IMG/VR virus record: IMGVR_UViG_3300036715_002161
Span: 64,001 to 128,000 of that record
DNA: 64,000 nucleotides
Direction: 5' to 3' (one strand)
DNA from: a virus
In this document: positions 1,730 to 61,882 of the stretch, piece by piece
Layout of the letters: each line of letters begins with the position of its first letter
Numbering within the stretch: position 1 is the stretch's first letter
Notes under the pieces: generated by a model
Told to the model about the DNA's origin: nothing
What the model saw: only the letters and a program-made list of their open reading frames with translations
Database searches by the model: none
Made by a program: the position numbers and the translations under genes

Positions 1730-1793
1730 GTTTTTAATTTCCTATAGGGTTAAGTAAAAAAGAAGAAAGACTAAATATCTTTCCTCTAAATTG

Positions 1794-1822
1794 CTTATAC
1801 CATGAAATTCAAAAATATCTAA
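1794..1822 (-). promoter_or_regulatory. phage class-A (early/middle) promoter driving the Ubl operon
   Basis: TTAGAT-17 nt-TATAAG with TGG before the -10; motif found 7 times in the window. Confidence 0.75.
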
Positions 1823-33554: not shown

Positions 33555-33896
33555 ACAGTTCCCGATTTTTTTAAGTACGTTACTTGGGACCCTTTCTTCA
33601 AACATTGGAAATCCGTATGCCTCATTATTAGAATTCCATAAGGCGGTTTCGATATTGAGCATGGTACTAGTTTCATGGTTATAATTGATCAAATGAAACA
33701 CCTGCCCAGAGTCCATCTTTTCTGTGGCAACTTCTCTTCCATTTTTAAAACAGAAAAGTTCGTCGTCTCTACAGAGGGCTATGGCCACTTCGGCCCTGTT
33801 AGCCTCTGGTTGAAGCTTAACTTTAAACGTTACTCCACCCTTAGGCTCCCAACTACTTGTCCTAAGATGTCGATAAAAAATCATTTCTTTGTTCAT
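33540..33896 (-). CDS. hypothetical phage protein
   Basis: 118 aa; GGVT...ALC..DE.F....GR..A pattern. Confidence 0.6.
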   Translation of the reverse strand: MNKEMIFYRHLRTSSWEPKGGVTFKVKLQPEANRAEVAIALCRDDELFCFKNGREVATEKMDSGQVFHLINYNHETSTMLNIETALWNSNNEAYGFPMFEERVPSNVLKKIGNCLDNF

Positions 33897-34365
33897 TTAA
33901 GTATCCTAAAAATGCTAAACATATAGCATCGGCTTCATGATCTGATTTAAGTTTTTTTCCATAAATCAATTCAGCAGCGGCCAATGAAAACTCTTTGTTG
34001 AAGGAATTGCCTGGATTAGTAAAACCATGATCTCTAACCAGTATTTTGCACAGGGTTGATTTCCAATCTATGGCCCTTACCATTTGTACTGGTATTTCTT
34101 TAGACTCAAAGTAGAATACCAAGGCCCCTATCATCATAAGTATATACTCAGATGCTCCTGAATTTACCCCACTATATCCTACATATCTCTCCATTACAAC
34201 CGAAGAAATTGAGTAGTCTTGGAGCAGGGTTTCCAGGCCGGAAATAAAACCAGTAATACCTTGGTCCCTTGGTTTGCCACTATACCTAAGGACAACCTCT
34301 CCCTCTGGACTGATTATTCCTAGTCCAAAAGAAGCCCAACCTGGATCAATACCAAGGGCGAACAT
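33862..34365 (-). CDS. ruvC: RuvC-like Holliday junction resolvase
   Basis: LGIDPG, VVMER, DHEADA catalytic motifs. Confidence 0.8.
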   Translation of the reverse strand: MFALGIDPGWASFGLGIISPEGEVVLRYSGKPRDQGITGFISGLETLLQDYSISSVVMERYVGYSGVNSGASEYILMMIGALVFYFESKEIPVQMVRAIDWKSTLCKILVRDHGFTNPGNSFNKEFSLAAAELIYGKKLKSDHEADAICLAFLGYLNEQRNDFLSTS

Positions 34366-35356
34366 ACATTATCTCATCAAACTCCCCAAGACTTGGTTGC
34401 TGAGTTTTGAAGTACTGACTTCTGGCCACTTCAAAACTAATTGGTTTTTCAGGCCTTTTCAATAGATTGGCAGCAATATTTTCAAGACTATTTTGAAAGA
34501 CAACGGCCACAGTACGAAGCCCTGCCTCATTAGCCACTGTCAAAAACTCCTTGCGGGACTTGATTGAAACATGGCAGTTGTCTACAAATCGGACCGGGTC
34601 TTCCTGCTTGACAAACTTATTAAACTCCTTTAATACTTTACCACTAAAGCCAGAGTCTTCTGTGGAATGTTTCCAGGCTTCTTGGTAATTTCCAGGATAC
34701 CAGTCCAGTCTAAGGGTGTCCATACTAAAGATGGGCCCATCCCTTTGACCCAACCAGGTACTCTTGCCGGACCCCGAACATCCAATCATGAATAAAATTT
34801 CATTTAATTTTATATCTGGTTCTGGCAAGGTCACAGGATTTTTAAGCCAAAACTCTGCCAAAAAAATCTTTTCCTTATGATTATCTGAGATTCTTCCTCG
34901 GCAGTCAGCCATAATTACCTTGGAGTATAAATCCCAGTCAATAGTGGCCTGTGCCCACTCAGGCTTGACCTTATAGTATAGGTGATTTTCAATCAGCCAT
35001 ATGACTTTACCCAGGTCAAACCCGAAAGGAATATTATCCCTATTGGTAATCAGCCAGTCTTCGGCCAATCGGGCAGAAATAAGCTCATGGCCATAAAATA
35101 CAGACCTACCTTCTTTATCTCTCTTGGCTTCCGGTTTGCCAGCATCATGGAAGGCCACGGCCAAAAAGCCTGAGGCCAGGTCAGTATTAGAAAGATCGAT
35201 GTCGGACCTAAGGTATTCCTGTACTACCATGTCAGTATGAACTAGCACTGACTCCTCCCTATGCCATTCAGAGTCTTCCCGACACAGACCCATTATACGA
35301 AACAATGGATCCGGCCTCAGAACTTCTTGATAGAAGTTCAGTAGGGTTTCTTTCAT
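34346..35356 (-). CDS. HD-domain / polynucleotide kinase (AAA_33) fusion
   Basis: WHREE.V..HT, FHDAGK, GHE; P-loop GCSGSGKST. Confidence 0.8.
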   Translation of the reverse strand: MKETLLNFYQEVLRPDPLFRIMGLCREDSEWHREESVLVHTDMVVQEYLRSDIDLSNTDLASGFLAVAFHDAGKPEAKRDKEGRSVFYGHELISARLAEDWLITNRDNIPFGFDLGKVIWLIENHLYYKVKPEWAQATIDWDLYSKVIMADCRGRISDNHKEKIFLAEFWLKNPVTLPEPDIKLNEILFMIGCSGSGKSTWLGQRDGPIFSMDTLRLDWYPGNYQEAWKHSTEDSGFSGKVLKEFNKFVKQEDPVRFVDNCHVSIKSRKEFLTVANEAGLRTVAVVFQNSLENIAANLLKRPEKPISFEVARSQYFKTQQPSLGEFDEIMYVRPWY

Positions 35357-37005
35357 AGGTTGTTTACCCTTTCTCTAATTTCAGTAATAGTTTGAAACTT
35401 GGTGATTTCACCATCCTTAAAGACAGTTTCTAGACAACCAGTTTTTTCCTGTTCTGGAGTTTGTTGATCGTATAGGACATATTTTCCATTTTCCTTTTCA
35501 ACTCTTAAAAGACCTTTGGCTGATTTCTTGGTGCCTGAATCAGTGGCTGGATCTTTTACAAGTTCTACGGATTGACCTTGGATAACTCCATGGGTTGCTT
35601 TCATTGCAAATCCCAGAGAGTCTCTGGTTACATAGTTATAGGTGTATGACCCAATACCAAAAACCACGTTATCACTACAAAACCCTTTTTCCTCCAAACG
35701 CCTAAAGATTTCCTCGGCCCGTGCCAATGTAATTGAATCACCATAGATCAAACCAATATGGCTATCCAACATCTTATACCCAGTGTCAGTTACAACTCCT
35801 CCGAAGATTTCCCAAAGACATTCTACAGCTCCTTTTAGCTCTGGGGTAAGAGTGGTTATTTCTAAGTTAACAGGATTAATATCATCATAGAGATTAACCC
35901 TATATAAGTTACCTTTCCAATGGAAATAAGTAAGGCCATCGGACCACATTGGGTTTACACCTGTTTCTAATTGAATCTTATCTAAATATCTCAAGGCCTC
36001 ATTCATGGTATTCCCGACCGCATCAATTATTTTTACCCCACAGATAATTTCTACGGGATCGCCAGAGTCAGGTCTTAAGACGGTTTTAGACTGGCCAATA
36101 CCATTTGCGGGTCTGGCCAAAATCTCCTCCTTAAGCTCAGGGAGATACTCGGTAATAACCTTCCAAAAATCCCAGGTGTCAGAAACGATAGATACAATGC
36201 CTGTAGGATAGACTTCACTAATGAGTCTACGGAAGGTTTCAATTTCTGTTTCCTTGCTACCCATACACATTACAGAATGTTCCGTCGCAGGGACACTTCC
36301 CCCAAGGAAAGTATCCAAACCGTTGTAGTAGTCTTCTAGGTAGTCTAAGGATGGTACGGTATCAGTTCCTGAGAAACAGGTCAAATGGGCAGCTCCACTC
36401 TTGGCTGCATCCTGCATTGAACTCATACCTCTCATTGAGAAGTCGTGGCATTGCCATCCTTTGAAACCAGGGTGGCCCCCAGTCAGTGCAGAATATTTGT
36501 CAACCAGTTTTTTATAACCAAGGGCTGTGGTGGCCGAGGTAATTGGCTTCCACAATTCTACAGAAAACAAAGTTTCCAGATAGGTAACCAACCAGGCAAA
36601 GTGTGGATCGGTATTGGTCACAGTAAAGACCGGAACTTTAAAGGGAACCATGCTTCCCTCTGGAAGGGCCTTAATTTCCAAAGGTAAGTATCCAAGTTCC
36701 CACAAGGCTTTGATATGATCGGTTCCGACCAGTCCGGGCCCAAGGGCTTTGTCCATTCTAGCCTTATATCGGTCAAGAATGTTTTCAATTGGTTTCCTGA
36801 AGAAATTATCTTTCCACAGGTCAATTAGAGTTGATTGCATGAACCCTTGAAGGCCGAAGAACAATACTCCTTCTACACCCTCTTGTAGAAAGTAGCTACC
36901 ACTCCTGGGAGTGAAGTTGGAATAAATCTTTTCAGTTCCTTTCGGGTACTGGCTGATGTGGCCGGACTTATAGAAGTCGATTTGATGTTCTGGGCGAATA
37001 TTCAT
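35353..37005 (-). CDS. nadV: nicotinamide phosphoribosyltransferase-like protein (Namat candidate)
   Basis: DFYKSGH, HDFSMRG, SVPATEHSV, SIVSDTWD, LRPDSGDP, IYGDSIT, KKSAKG. Confidence 0.9.
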   Translation of the reverse strand: MNIRPEHQIDFYKSGHISQYPKGTEKIYSNFTPRSGSYFLQEGVEGVLFFGLQGFMQSTLIDLWKDNFFRKPIENILDRYKARMDKALGPGLVGTDHIKALWELGYLPLEIKALPEGSMVPFKVPVFTVTNTDPHFAWLVTYLETLFSVELWKPITSATTALGYKKLVDKYSALTGGHPGFKGWQCHDFSMRGMSSMQDAAKSGAAHLTCFSGTDTVPSLDYLEDYYNGLDTFLGGSVPATEHSVMCMGSKETEIETFRRLISEVYPTGIVSIVSDTWDFWKVITEYLPELKEEILARPANGIGQSKTVLRPDSGDPVEIICGVKIIDAVGNTMNEALRYLDKIQLETGVNPMWSDGLTYFHWKGNLYRVNLYDDINPVNLEITTLTPELKGAVECLWEIFGGVVTDTGYKMLDSHIGLIYGDSITLARAEEIFRRLEEKGFCSDNVVFGIGSYTYNYVTRDSLGFAMKATHGVIQGQSVELVKDPATDSGTKKSAKGLLRVEKENGKYVLYDQQTPEQEKTGCLETVFKDGEITKFQTITEIRERVNNL

Positions 37006-37805
37006 TTAGTATAAACCTTAACGTTGGGGTTACAAAATACAGTATCATTGACCATCTTAAATATAAATATATCTTTGTAATACAAGAGTAAGTCAAAAAA
37101 TCCTTTAGAAAAGATACCATGTGTTACATACAGGAAAAGATGTACGGTACTACCAGTCTGTCTTATGGCCTTGGCCAACTCTATAAATGTCTTGCCACCG
37201 TCACATATGTCGTCGACAACTAATATTGACCGATATTTATAGGCCTCCAACTCTTTATTGTTTACCTCTATACCGACAATATCCCCATTGTCTGCATCTC
37301 TGATCTTGGTGGCGGCAGTAAACGGTAAGTTAAGGGACATGGCCAGTGTTCTAGTTTTTTCTAAAGCTCCATGGTCTGGGGCCATCAGTATTGACTTATC
37401 TAACACTGGCCGTGGGATTGCCACTAAGGCAGCAATAAATTGGGGGATTACGGAGCTACGTTCTAAAAGACCTGAGACTTCACTATGAGGGTCTACAAGG
37501 CTGACATGGTAAAACTTGGCAGCATTTATAAGGTCACAGAAAACTTTTAGAGAAAATGCTTCTCCAGGATAACATGCACGGTCTTGTCTACCATAGGGTA
37601 AATATTCCAGACTAAGGCTTACCTCTATTACTCCTGCCCGATCCAGGGCGTCTTTGACCAGTAATAGGGTCATTAAGTCATCAGAGGACCGGATGTCATA
37701 ATCCAGACAGATTTTCTCAGGTAAGGACTCAACCAGTCGTATCTGGATTTCCCCGGCTGAGAATTTAATAGGATAGCCAGGAGCCATCAGTTCAGATATT
37801 TTCAT
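37002..37805 (-). CDS. prs: ribose-phosphate pyrophosphokinase-like protein (Adps candidate)
   Basis: FSAGE, YLPYGRQDR, DPHS, APDHGA, VVDDICDGGKTF, VTHGIFS. Confidence 0.9.
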   Translation of the reverse strand: MKISELMAPGYPIKFSAGEIQIRLVESLPEKICLDYDIRSSDDLMTLLLVKDALDRAGVIEVSLSLEYLPYGRQDRACYPGEAFSLKVFCDLINAAKFYHVSLVDPHSEVSGLLERSSVIPQFIAALVAIPRPVLDKSILMAPDHGALEKTRTLAMSLNLPFTAATKIRDADNGDIVGIEVNNKELEAYKYRSILVVDDICDGGKTFIELAKAIRQTGSTVHLFLYVTHGIFSKGFFDLLLYYKDIFIFKMVNDTVFCNPNVKVYTK

Positions 37806-38209
37806 TTAAATTCCCCATTTATAATCTCCGAGTCTGACGAGTTTAAACCGCTGCTACAATTTACTGCGACTACTTCAGAGGTACTCTTTAGACTGAATCG
37901 GACAAGTCGGGTCTCCAAGGCATCACAGCCGAACAAATGTTCATATTCGGCAGATGCATGGAGCCACCATCTAAGAGCTTGGGCAGCCGAATACCCCAGG
38001 AGTCCGGCATTGGAAAGTTCTTGGTCATACGGACTATGACTTGGAATTCCAGAAGGATTTTCTTGAAACTTGACCTCGACCCAGTTATTGTCGAAAGTCT
38101 GACCTGAAACGGTCAAAGGTCTACTAGATACTCTGGCCTCTACTGAATACCCGGTCTTTCGACTAGATCCAGTACTTCTGTTCATTCTGTAACCTTGCTC
38201 AAGTTCCAT
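37802..38209 (-). CDS. hypothetical protein
   Basis: 135 aa with AGGAG RBS; coupled to prs. Confidence 0.65.
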   Translation of the reverse strand: MELEQGYRMNRSTGSSRKTGYSVEARVSSRPLTVSGQTFDNNWVEVKFQENPSGIPSHSPYDQELSNAGLLGYSAAQALRWWLHASAEYEHLFGCDALETRLVRFSLKSTSEVVAVNCSSGLNSSDSEIINGEFK

Positions 38210-38226
38210 TTAATTCTCCTTTGAAA

Positions 38227-38462
38227 TAAAAAAAGTTCAATCCACACCTGACTGGGATAGCGAATCCCAATCAGGTACAGGTTGAAGACTGCTCTTGTGA
38301 AACAATCAACAGCTTTCTGAATACCGGCAGGTCACCACCAGGCTCCAGACGTCCAGTTTCAACAGCTTGACTAAGGCTGTTACGTTATGTCAGGGCGTCT
38401 GTAACACCCCTATCAATACCCTATGCTTATAACTGGAAAGTTCAGCAAAAGTATTAATTCTC
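38227..38462 (-). ncRNA. candidate ~240-nt structured RNA / attenuator leader
   Basis: Promoter upstream; nested pairings CTGAA/TTCAG and CCAGTT/AACTGG; internal hairpins; long terminal stem plus T7. Confidence 0.55.
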
Positions 38463-38469
38463 TATTGTT

Positions 38470-38499
38470 CTTATACCAAATTCTTAGGAACTTATCTAA
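38470..38499 (-). promoter_or_regulatory. class-A promoter
   Basis: TTAGAT-18-TATAAG with TGG. Confidence 0.75.
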
Positions 38500-38533
38500 T
38501 TCAACCTAGACTTGGAGACAAAGGTTCTGCCTA

Positions 38534-39157
38534 TTATTTCCTATGTCTAAACGATTGTCTTAGGTCAAAGCCATACTGATTAATTTTGTCCCGGTCACCT
38601 ATTTCTACCAGAGTAGGTTCCGGTGGAGACATAAAACAGGCCAGGTCTTGATAAAGTTGTTCTGGTGGATATTGGGCGGCAAAGCCTACTATGTTCTTAA
38701 GGATGGGGATTTCGGCGTCAATTACCACATAGTCTTTATACGGAGTCAATCCTTTGATTATAAAAACTGGGGTTCCCATTCTATGGGAAAGGTCTACCAG
38801 GTTTTGATCCATGAAGCCTGTATAGTAATCTAATTGCTTCTTGTTAACACTACGTGGATTATAGAGCAGAATTTTAGCTATTTCCGTGTGTCTTACCGGG
38901 TTGAAGAGGCTCCAGGTATAATCGGGATCCATCACTATTAGGTAGTATTTACCAACTACACATAAATATCTACATTGGTAGTCTCTGGTCGGAAATAGGT
39001 TTCGATCTGTCTCATAGTTAATTGTTATACTTCCAGAGATCCCTTCTGCTGACAAGGGAACAAGCCTATTACGAGAGTAGATTACTTTGGGATCACCACC
39101 ACCATATAGGTGAGGTACATGGTCATAATAGTCTTTGAACTTGGATTGAATTATCAT
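38534..39157 (-). CDS. hypothetical phage protein
   Basis: 207 aa; IQSKFKDYYD N-terminus, GFD..QSFR C-terminus. Confidence 0.7.
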   Translation of the reverse strand: MIIQSKFKDYYDHVPHLYGGGDPKVIYSRNRLVPLSAEGISGSITINYETDRNLFPTRDYQCRYLCVVGKYYLIVMDPDYTWSLFNPVRHTEIAKILLYNPRSVNKKQLDYYTGFMDQNLVDLSHRMGTPVFIIKGLTPYKDYVVIDAEIPILKNIVGFAAQYPPEQLYQDLACFMSPPEPTLVEIGDRDKINQYGFDLRQSFRHRK

Positions 39158-45581: not shown

Positions 45582-45827
45582 TTACTCTTTCTTATACCAC
45601 GAATTTCCTATTATTCCATTTCTGGCCTTGAAAATTGTCAAGGCTAATATTTCCTCTGACAATTTAAAAAAAGACTCATTTAACCTCTGGTAGGCTGCCC
45701 TATGTTTGGGCGAGCCTGGAACCAGTTGTTGTAAGTCTTCTTTTAAAATTTCGAGAGAAAGACGGGACAGTTTCTGCTGAGTATGAACCTCGGCCACTAC
45801 TGATAAAACTGGGTCTTCCTGATCCAA
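45582..45827 (-). CDS. hypothetical protein
   Basis: 81-aa ORF in operon. Confidence 0.45.
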   Translation of the reverse strand: MDQEDPVLSVVAEVHTQQKLSRLSLEILKEDLQQLVPGSPKHRAAYQRLNESFFKLSEEILALTIFKARNGIIGNSWYKKE

Positions 45828-61729: not shown

Positions 61730-61846
61730 AAAAAAAACCAGGATCAAAACTACCGATCCTGGCGAGTGGCTAGACAAAAAAGCTAGCAAGGAGCAGCGGT
61801 CTAATAAAACGACCGCAACAAAAGAAAAAAGTAAACTCTACTCTCT
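61730..61846 (-). ncRNA. candidate ~115-nt small RNA / attenuator
   Basis: Three consecutive hairpins (GCGGTC/GACCGC, GCTAG/CTAGC, CCAGGATC/GATCCTGG) ending in T8, behind a class-A promoter. Confidence 0.55.
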
Positions 61847-61852
61847 ACCTTA

Positions 61853-61882
61853 CTTATACCAATATATAAGCCCTATATCTAA
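61853..61882 (-). promoter_or_regulatory. class-A promoter
   Basis: TTAGAT-18-TATAAG with TGG. Confidence 0.75.

What the first reader, a model, noticed from the sequence alone, without database searches (positions are those of the whole stretch)
38210..38499. Multi-stem ~240-nt leader with terminator directly upstream of the NAD-salvage operon: possible new riboswitch or sRNA
Seen on the minus strand: promoter; then a multibranch fold (CTGAA/TTCAG enclosing CCAGTT/AACTGG, which encloses the hairpins GGGGTGT/ACGCCCT and AACAGC/GCTGTT); then a long TTCAA..ACCTGATTGGGAT/ATCCCAGTCAGGT..TTGAA stem with T7 ending ~17 nt before the ATG of the ORF-prs-nadV operon. The operon has no other evident class-A promoter, so it would need read-through. 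Inference: metabolite-controlled (NAD+/ADPR/PRPP) or protein-controlled attenuation of a counter-defence pathway, or an independent sRNA.
Basis: partly seen in the sequence, partly recalled or inferred. Interest (0 to 1): 0.75.

Follow-up and report, generated by a model that had tools for sequence, protein, structure and literature searches.

The report
Orphan phage leader RNA with terminator
An uncultured phage makes a roughly 235-base folded RNA that ends at a very strong stop signal just before its NAD-rebuilding genes, so it probably acts as a fixed gate, not a metabolite sensor.

Summary
The 324-nt gap 38210-38533 (minus strand) is non-coding. It holds a real phage early promoter (TTAGATA-N14-TGGTATAAG, one of 21 copies in the 138-kb genome). 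About 235 transcribed bases follow, then the strongest of 89 terminator-like sites I scored in the genome. Its U7 run ends 18 nt before the ATG of a five-gene, translationally coupled operon (ORF135, Prs/Adps-like, NAMPT/Namat-like, HD+kinase, RuvC-like). The read-through argument therefore holds.

It is 11.7 kcal/mol worse than a plain chain of five hairpins. A natural second haplotype breaks its outer helix but keeps the alternative hairpin H4, through one C-G to A-U double change plus G.U to A-U (simulation P about 0.02).

The riboswitch reading has no support:
- no Rfam match;
- no homologue in 80 phage prs-nadV loci, 50 whole viral records or any other fetched DNA;
- the terminator has no competing antiterminator, since shuffled leaders pair with its 5' arm better than the real one;
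- without the terminator the fold is only marginally better than chance (z -1.65).

Best reading: a lineage-specific early RNA and terminator gate, passed by leak or by an unknown factor. Other notes of this scan describe different small leaders before NAD genes in other phages, not this RNA.

The parts
38470..38499 (-). Early (sigma-70-like, extended -10) phage promoter: TTAGATA 38499-38493, 14-nt spacer, TGGTATAAG 38478-38470. The start of transcription is inferred at about 38464-38462.
   Evidence: One of 21 sites with the consensus aTTAGAtA-N14-TGGTATAAG. The 9-mer occurs 17 times in the genome. The start site is inferred from spacing, not shown.
38412..38458 (-). Hairpin H1, a long bulged stem with many G.U pairs and a UUCC apical loop.
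   Evidence: Minimum-energy and centroid folds. No comparative support. Identical in all four runs laid.
38392..38410 (-). Hairpin H2, 8 bp (GGGGUGUU / GACGCCCU) with a 3-nt loop.
Evidence: Folds. No variation available.
38360..38382 (-). Hairpin H3, 7 bp (AACAGCC / AGCUGUU) with a 9-nt loop.
Evidence: Folds. No variation available.
38316..38349 (-). Hairpin H4, two-tier: outer 6 bp UCUGGA/UUCAGA, 2x2 internal loop, inner 7 bp, UGAC loop. This is the only helix with natural covariation.
   Evidence: Pair probabilities 0.89-0.93. In the second haplotype of run X4, C38348-G38317 becomes A-U and G38345.U38320 becomes A-U. Simulation P=0.017 for at most 1 broken pair plus at least 1 compensated pair.
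38287..38307 (-). Hairpin H5, 8 bp with a CACAA loop. An alternative register is 38313-38288.
   Evidence: Folds. In the haplotype, U38300>C turns U.G into C-G (or lies in the loop of the alternative register), and C38287>A opens the terminal pair or is a junction base.
38228..38286 (-). Intrinsic terminator: a 51-nt bulged hairpin 38286-38236 (14-bp upper stem, UCGCU loop, UUCAA/UUGAA base), then C, then U7 at 38234-38228.
   Evidence: -27.9 kcal/mol. Strongest of 89 hairpin-plus-T-run sites in the genome. Inverted repeat I1. Not listed by the template scan.
38207..38221 (-). Shine-Dalgarno AAGGAG (38221-38216) and ATG (38209-38207) of ORF135, the first gene of the gated operon.
   Evidence: Sequence. 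The N-terminus MELE is shared by homologues (alignment A1).
33862..38209 (-). Downstream operon of five overlapping genes: ORF135 (37802-38209), Prs/Adps-like (37002-37805), NAMPT/Namat-like (35353-37005), HD + AAA_33 kinase-like (34346-35356) and RuvC-like (33862-34365).
   Evidence: ORF map, Pfam, PHROGs. No TGGTATAA promoter inside.

Best explanation
This is a lineage-specific early transcription unit that also serves as a fixed gate. Host RNA polymerase starts at a strong phage early promoter and transcribes about 235 nt, which fold into a row of five hairpins (H1-H5). Most transcripts then stop at the strongest intrinsic terminator of the genome, releasing a stable, structured small RNA. 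The five-gene operon ORF135 / Adps-like / Namat-like / HD-kinase / RuvC-like begins 18 nt after the U-run. It is made only by the fraction of polymerases that run through, whether they started at this promoter or in the upstream tRNA-ORF207 operon. The terminator is not set against an alternative structure, so the gate is not a metabolite switch. Read-through is either constitutive leak or depends on an unidentified factor.

Shown: the promoter family, the absence of an ORF, the terminator, the geometry that forces read-through, and pairing of H4 kept in a natural variant.

Inferred: the start site, that termination is efficient, that the released RNA has a function of its own, and the mode of read-through.
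For: - Promoter: one of 21 copies of one consensus.
- No ORF in the gap.
- Terminator: -27.9 kcal/mol with U7, the strongest of 89 candidates.
- Geometry: 18 nt from U-run to ATG, and no other promoter of the family up to 33862.
- No terminator lies between the stop of ORF207 (38534) and this promoter, so upstream transcription meets the same gate.
- The terminator is insulated. Adding its 5' arm to the real leader gains only -5.2 kcal/mol, against a mean of -8.3 (sd 3.0) for 200 shuffled leaders, and 86.5% of the shuffles pair at least as well.
- RNA-level selection on H4/H5: all five SNPs of the second haplotype (run X4) lie in 38287-38348. They give one compensatory C-G to A-U change, two one-sided changes that keep pairs, and at most one opened terminal pair. 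Simulation gives P=0.017, or 0.003 for the stricter pattern.
- The fold is strand-specific: -52.5 against -38.7 kcal/mol.
- The arrangement promoter, terminator, RBS recurs in this phage. 7 of 21 family promoters have a T-run before their first ORF, 3 of 21 with a hairpin of -9 kcal/mol or better. 7 intergenic terminator-like sites lie 17-32 nt before the next start codon.
Against: - No transcript data of any kind.
- Without the terminator, the fold is only marginally better than shuffles (z -1.65, 11 of 200 as good).
- The energy test on the haplotype is not significant: ddG +2.3 kcal/mol, and 37% (random) or 24% (type-matched) of random 5-SNP sets do as well.
- The covariation rests on one variant haplotype, and the structure was predicted from the reference itself.
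- No homologue anywhere, so a function for the released RNA is not demonstrated.
- The base of the terminator stem next to the U-run is A/U-rich, so its real efficiency is unknown.
- A counter-defence operon placed behind the strongest terminator is odd if read-through is mere leak.
Confidence: 0.45

Rival explanations
1. Factor-dependent antitermination gate for temporal control. The unit would work like the promoter-proximal terminated transcript of lambda pR'-tR' (6S RNA) with Q, or nut/N or put RNA; all of these are recalled, not from a call. An early phage or host factor, perhaps recognising one of H1-H5 or the promoter-proximal region, makes the polymerase terminator-resistant and so turns on the NAD-rebuilding operon after a delay.
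For: The same geometry as in the best explanation. Promoter, terminator, RBS recurs at other early promoters: window 1802 has an 11-bp hairpin plus U6 about 35 nt after the promoter and 32 nt before the ORF, and window 61861 is similar. This suggests a genome-wide device. A very strong, insulated terminator suits a factor-driven system better than a leaky one.
Against: None of the three Pfam Q-antiterminator families (PF06530, PF03589, PF06323) matches in the 138-kb record, which is estimated 78% complete. No sequence or hairpin is shared between the transcribed regions of the promoter-terminator units beyond the promoter consensus. Only 3 of 21 promoters have a convincing terminator before the first gene.
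Confidence: 0.2
2. Metabolite riboswitch. H1-H5 would form an aptamer for NAD+, ADPR, NMN or PRPP, and ligand state would decide between termination and read-through.
For: Position in front of NAD-related genes with a terminator just before the RBS. Some pairing is kept in a natural variant. A weak alternative pairing of 38378-38359 with 38285-38259 exists.
Against: - No Rfam match at the gathering score in the 64-kb window. At E<=10 in 1 kb there are only two chance hits on the terminator.
- The leader is absent from 80 of 80 phage prs loci, 78 with nadV, and from 50 of 50 whole viral records.
- Most of those operons have under 100 nt upstream of prs.
- The alternative pairing is weaker than in 86.5% of shuffled leaders.
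- The terminator (-27.9 kcal/mol) far outweighs it.
- The aptamer-sized part folds at z -1.65 only.
Confidence: 0.07
3. No RNA function. The gap would be a spacer or the scar of an insertion. The terminator simply ends the upstream tRNA-ORF207 operon, and the promoter in front of it is a displaced or redundant copy. The hairpins would be chance structure in fast-evolving non-coding DNA.
For: - No homologue anywhere.
- Marginal fold significance without the terminator.
- The haplotype energy test is not significant.
- A 14-nt direct repeat (12 of 14 identical) lies at both ends of the unit, 38454-38467 and 38210-38223, as an insertion between promoter and RBS might leave.
- Homologues of ORF135 in 12 viral loci have no long upstream gap.
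Against: The promoter is a full match to a strong family consensus. The variant keeps H4 through a double compensatory change. The fold is clearly better on the transcribed strand. The 14-nt repeat is about what chance gives in this AT-rich stretch (my estimate is 0.2-0.5 such pairs expected), and it overlaps the promoter's own downstream consensus.
Confidence: 0.2

Closest known systems
Lambda pR'-tR' unit (the 194-nt '6S' transcript) gated by Q antitermination. Recalled from textbook knowledge, not from a call.
   Same: A constitutive promoter, a short non-coding transcript ended by a strong intrinsic terminator, and an operon directly behind it that is expressed only by read-through.
   Different: No Q-family protein was found in this record. 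No qut-like element can be recognised. The gated genes are early accessory and NAD genes, not late genes. The transcript carries five extra hairpins.
Riboswitch or attenuator leaders with a terminator expression platform, including the NAD+-I (nadA motif), NAD+-II (pnuC motif) and PRPP classes. The class names are recalled. The test here was the whole Rfam 15 library.
   Same: A 5' leader with hairpins, then a terminator, then the RBS, in front of genes of NAD metabolism.
   Different: No match to any of 4227 Rfam models. No antiterminator competes with the terminator. The leader is not conserved upstream of related operons.
Phage-encoded small RNAs with their own promoter and terminator, such as lambda oop and T4 band C/D RNAs. 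Recalled, not from a call.
   Same: A self-contained promoter-to-terminator unit without an ORF in an early region.
   Different: No target or partner is known. A duplex scan against 186 phage translation start regions was no better than shuffles. The unit sits in series with an operon, not beside it.
NrtR operators at bacterial prs-nadV operons (Rodionov et al. 2008, PMC2330246; I read passages only).
   Same: An ADP-ribose-responsive control element in front of prs-nadV. The NAMPT here is 58% identical to that of an Acinetobacter-type prs-nadV-nadM cluster.
   Different: That element is a 21-bp DNA palindrome with a GT-N7-AC core, bound by a protein. By eye I saw no such palindrome in 38460-38500 (no formal scan was run). 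The stems here have G.U pairs and are strand-specific.

Membership tests
Known riboswitch classes (Rfam 15, all 4227 models) | Match of sequence and structure to a curated covariance model | tested here: not met
   At the gathering score, only two tRNAs match in the 64-kb window. At E<=10 in 37900-38900 there are only MIR9746 (E 1) and bglG-cis-reg (E 1.3), both on the terminator hairpin and 60 bits below their cut-offs.
Riboswitch (as a kind) | Aptamer conserved upstream of functionally related genes in several genomes | tested here: not met
   Model R1 (174 nt, 60 pairs) finds only itself among 93 fetched loci plus the window. These include 80 phage prs loci, 78 with nadV. It finds 0 of 50 whole viral records and nothing real in 13 further loci.
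Riboswitch / attenuator (as a kind) | Mutually exclusive terminator and antiterminator structures | tested here: not met
   The best alternative pairing of the terminator's 5' arm gains -5.2 kcal/mol. Shuffled leaders gain -8.3 (sd 3.0) on average, and 86.5% of 200 do at least as well. The terminator itself is -27.9 kcal/mol.
Riboswitch (as a kind) | Direct ligand binding that changes structure or termination | not testable with these tools
   Needs in-line probing or termination assays.
Intrinsic (Rho-independent) terminator | Stable hairpin immediately followed by a U-run on the transcribed strand | tested here: met
   A 51-nt hairpin of -27.9 kcal/mol, a 1-nt spacer, then U7. It was not listed by the stricter template scan.
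Sigma-70-type early promoter family of this phage | Match to a recurring -35-like / extended -10 consensus placed before genes | tested here: met
   TTAGATA-N14-TGGTATAAG, one of 21 aligned sites. Most of the other sites lie 14-65 nt before an ORF with an SD. Activity itself was not tested.
Q-type antitermination unit (lambda pR'-tR') | A promoter-proximal terminated transcript in series with an operon | tested here: met
Q-type antitermination unit (lambda pR'-tR') | A Q-family antiterminator protein encoded by the phage | tested here: not met
   PF06530, PF03589 and PF06323 give 0 matches at E<=1 in the 138-kb record, which is 78% complete, so absence is not proven.
Trans-acting small RNA | Own promoter and terminator, no ORF | tested here: met
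Trans-acting small RNA | An identifiable target by complementarity | tested here: inconclusive
   The best duplex with 186 phage start regions is -44.6 kcal/mol, against shuffled RNA at mean -42.0 (sd 4.0). The method is crude, and the host genome is unknown.

The most novel reading that the evidence does not exclude
The hairpin row H1-H5 is the recognition element of a new, phage-specific conditional read-through system. A protein, or the nucleotide state of the infected cell (for instance the NAD+ or ADP-ribose level, or NAD-capped initiation at the +1 A), would decide whether polymerase passes the strongest terminator of the genome. The NAD-reconstitution (NARP1-like) counter-defence operon would then be switched on only when needed. 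That would be the first RNA-level control described for this pathway.
Probability: 0.1. Interest if true: 0.7.

Novelty: new member of a known kind. Interest (0 to 1): 0.3.

Why it matters
NAD-reconstitution operons are a recently recognised phage counter-defence, and nothing I could search describes how they are regulated. A search for riboswitch + nadV + phage returned 0 papers. The NARP1 preprint has no occurrence of riboswitch, UTR, terminator, promoter or non-coding (term search of the main text).

Here the operon sits behind a promoter-proximal terminator. This makes a simple experimental question: does the phage time or meter its NAD rescue by terminator read-through? The wider pattern in this phage of early promoters followed at once by terminators hints at an antitermination scheme in an uncultured lineage with no known antiterminator.

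As it stands, though, the RNA is an orphan, with one variant haplotype as its only comparative support, and the riboswitch idea that gave the finding its high first score is not supported.

Tried and rejected
**Searches for homologues, all empty**
- blastn 'distant' of 38150-38600 against 50,697 phage records found no match.
- nhmmer and blastn-short against the rest of the genome and 15 loci found only 12-18-nt chance matches.
- The search for related loci in viral contigs with ORF135, ORF207 (one 29% relative), Prs and DNA polymerase (one 23% relative) shows that the phage has no close relative there.
- The search for related loci in metagenome contigs with ORF135 found 0 relatives among 102 pattern hits.
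- The same with ORF207 found 7 loci at 27-34% identity, plus one 32-residue fragment at 72% cut off by its contig end. None has the RNA.
- The 14.3-bit R1 hit in L097-L099 has large indels (24>7, 51>9, 3>49) and overlaps an ORF, so I rejected it.
- A 20-nt exact pattern from H4 gave 0 hits in viral contigs. It gave 5 hits in high-GC bacterial MAGs in genome contigs, and these match the model only over the seed. I count them as chance.

The contigs of the closest Prs relative (53%, P0048) and the other four contigs holding the identical ORF135 could not be read.
- Supplements of the NARP1 papers (operon lists) are closed and might show other leaders.

**Expression**
- No RNA holder was listed among the 4 runs found, all of them DNA metagenomes.

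**Other tests that gave nothing**
- The thermodynamic test of the variant haplotype was not significant.
- The target scan against phage start regions was not better than shuffles.

**Readings rejected**
- DGR-type mutagenesis of the variable patch: the changes are not adenine-specific.
- An attC-like reading of the terminator hairpin: the R'/R'' boxes fit only 6 of 7, without the conserved G of GTT, and a U7 run follows (by eye).
- An NrtR operator: no GT-N7-AC palindrome seen by eye, and no formal scan was run.
- A hidden small protein.

**ORF135**
- The AlphaFold model has pLDDT 84.4. No Foldseek PDB match reached E<=0.001. No Pfam or PHROG family matches.

Full report
**What is there**

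The window is bases 64001-128000 of a 138,036-bp IMG/VR virus record with 42% G+C, estimated 78% complete. On the minus strand, the 324 nt between the stop of a 207-aa ORF (38534) and the ATG of a 135-aa ORF (38209) contain no plausible coding frame.

Five overlapping genes lie downstream:
- ORF135 (no Pfam or PHROG family);
- a Prs-like protein (PF13793, PF00156; phrog_619);
- a NAMPT-like protein (PF04095, PF18127; phrog_448);
- an HD + AAA_33 protein (phrog_6931);
- a RuvC-like resolvase.

The Prs/NAMPT pair has the gene order of the phage NARP1 pathway (Adps + Namat) described in 10.1101/2024.02.11.579819, of which I saw passages by term search. Whether these two enzymes use ADP-ribose was not tested here.

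**Promoter**

The 9-mer TGGTATAAG occurs 17 times in the genome. Twenty-one sites, all on the minus strand, align to aTTAGAtA-N14-TGGTATAAG, with a weakly conserved initial transcribed region. Read as TAGATA-17-TATAAG with a TG extension, this is a sigma-70-like early promoter; that reading is my inference.

Most copies lie 14-65 nt before an ORF with a Shine-Dalgarno sequence. The copy at 38499-38470 is a full match, but its first ORF is 261 nt away. The template scan did not list it, because its -10 ends in G.

**Terminator and geometry**

From about 38463 the transcript runs to a 51-nt bulged hairpin (38286-38236, -27.9 kcal/mol), one C, and U7 (38234-38228). My genome-wide scan for hairpin-plus-T-run sites found 89, and this one is the strongest. 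One search's stricter template missed it.

Only 18 nt, holding AAGGAG, separate the U-run from the ATG. No other promoter of the family lies between 38209 and 33862. Transcription from the upstream tRNA-paralogue-ORF207 operon meets the same terminator, since I found none between 38534 and the promoter.

**Fold**

The minimum-energy and centroid structures are a row of hairpins:

| Hairpin | Coordinates |
|---|---|
| H1 | 38458-38412 |
| H2 | 38410-38392 |
| H3 | 38382-38360 |
| H4 | 38349-38316 |
| H5 | 38307-38287 |

The terminator follows H5.

The enclosing helices CTGAA/TTCAG and CCAGTT/AACTGG have pair probability near 0, and forcing them costs 11.7 kcal/mol.

The significance is uneven:
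- z -3.58 for 336 nt including the terminator;
- z -1.65 for the 178 nt before it, with 11 of 200 shuffles as good;
- z -0.70 on the opposite strand, at -38.7 against -52.5 kcal/mol.

**Natural variation**

Four DNA metagenome runs hold the stretch, and three may be the source of the record. Three are identical to the window.

Run X4 carries, beside the reference form, a second haplotype. It has five listed substitutions, all within 38287-38348, which is exactly H4 plus H5. There are none in 659 nt of ORF135 and none in 38349-38819. On the RNA:
- C38348-G38317 becomes A-U;
- G38345.U38320 becomes A-U;
- U38300 becomes C, which turns U.G into C-G, or lies in a loop in the alternative register;
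- C38287 becomes A, a terminal pair or junction base.

It would also break an alternative H2/H4 pairing (I6).

In 200,000 simulated sets of five substitutions in that patch, 1.7% had at most one broken pair plus at least one compensated pair. Only 0.3% also had two one-sided pair-keeping changes.

Against this, the energy change (+2.3 kcal/mol) is not unusual: 37% or 24% of random sets do as well. The evidence is one haplotype, scored on a structure predicted from the reference.

The unitig lengths suggest one more variant near 38262, in the terminator loop. Its letter was not shown, so this is an inference.

**Is it a riboswitch?**

- Rfam 15 gives nothing.
- The phage has no close relative in the collections I could search.
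- I therefore built a single-sequence covariance model of 38460-38287 and searched DNA that should hold a homologue if the element were tied to the genes.
- Of the 80 best among at least 590 phage prs loci, 78 have nadV downstream, none has ORF135, and 68 have under 150 nt upstream of prs. The model matched none of them.
- It matched none of 12 loci with ORF135 homologues, where the gene is packed against its upstream neighbour and never sits next to prs or nadV.
- It matched none of 50 whole viral records. The other 43 loci's records were not searched whole.
- The terminator has no competitor. Its 5' arm gains -5.2 kcal/mol by pairing with the real leader, less than with 86.5% of shuffled leaders.

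I found no paper on an RNA leader of phage nadV or NARP1 (supplements are closed).

**Context in this phage**

Seven of the 21 family promoters have a T-run before their first ORF. Three have a hairpin of -9 kcal/mol or better: window 1802, 61861 and this one. Seven intergenic terminator-like sites lie 17-32 nt before the next start codon.

Terminators in series with genes are thus a habit of this genome. That fits either leaky punctuation or a general antitermination scheme. None of three Pfam Q-antiterminator families matches in the record.

**Verdict**

It is wrong in its drawn junction.

The best reading, at 0.45, is a lineage-specific early RNA and terminator gate without a ligand switch. 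The rivals are:
- factor-dependent antitermination, 0.2;
- a non-functional spacer or insertion scar, 0.2;
- a riboswitch, 0.07.

The comparison with lambda pR'-tR'/Q, nut/put, oop and the T4 small RNAs rests on recalled knowledge, not on a call.

Other notes of this scan report different, small SD-occluding hairpins before NAD genes in other phages. I did not test them, and they are not this RNA.

Noticed in passing
whole genome G000:C1; in the window at 1802, 33534, 38478, 40772, 45599, 54454, 58271, 59472, 61861 (all minus strand): A family of 21 promoter-like sites with consensus aTTAGAtA-N14-TGGTATAAG, all on the minus strand. They lie before early, replication and accessory genes, and none lies before the plus-strand structural genes.
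   Followed up: partly
window 1740-1802 (-) and 61737-61861 (-): Family promoters followed almost at once by a hairpin plus U-run, with the RBS of the first gene 32 nt later. At 1802 an 11-bp hairpin and U6 sit about 35 nt after the promoter, in front of a 65-aa ORF. This is the same promoter, terminator, gene order as in the finding.
   Followed up: partly
window 37802-38209 (-): ORF135 belongs to a conserved family of phage proteins of about 135 aa: 46 relatives at E<=0.001 among 59 candidates, with the invariant motif AAQALRWW. It has no Pfam or PHROG family. The AlphaFold model is confident (pLDDT 84.4) and has no Foldseek PDB match at E<=0.001. In 12 other viral contigs it is not next to prs or nadV.
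   Followed up: partly
window 38820-38863 (ORF207, -): The second haplotype in run X4 has 6 substitutions within 44 nt of ORF207. They change 4 of the 5 affected codons (Y99E, V104A, Q108R, T113I), in a small non-synonymous patch, while the surrounding 470 nt are identical.
   Followed up: partly
window 38210-38223 and 38454-38467: A 14-nt direct repeat (12 of 14 identical) lies at the RBS of ORF135 and at the inferred start of the RNA, so it brackets the 244-nt unit. It may be the scar of an insertion between promoter and RBS, or chance plus the promoter's downstream consensus.
   Followed up: no
G000:C1 13206/42474 and 13644/42813 (minus strand; outside the window): Two pairs of family promoters share about 40 nt of nearly identical upstream and downstream sequence, so whole promoter-leader segments are duplicated about 29 kb apart.
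   Followed up: no
window 34346-35356 (-): An HD-domain + AAA_33 (polynucleotide-kinase-like) protein, phrog_6931, overlaps the end of the NAMPT-like gene by 4 nt, and a RuvC-like gene follows it. It may be an accessory enzyme of the NAD operon or an RNA-repair-type enzyme.
   Followed up: no
L003 (CAKLQF020000015.1 46529-58007): The best GenBank 'phage' match of the NAMPT-like protein (58% identity) lies in a contig labelled Acinetobacter phage MD-2021a. Its neighbours are ordinary bacterial genes (ABC transporter, AraC regulator, prs-nadV-nadM, efflux pump), so it looks like bacterial chromosome, not phage.
   Followed up: no
window 45672 (-): The second strongest terminator-like site of the genome (-24.0 kcal/mol, U7) lies just upstream of the family promoter at 45599, which precedes the DNA polymerase gene. 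This is the usual terminator-then-promoter order, the opposite of the order in the finding.
   Followed up: no
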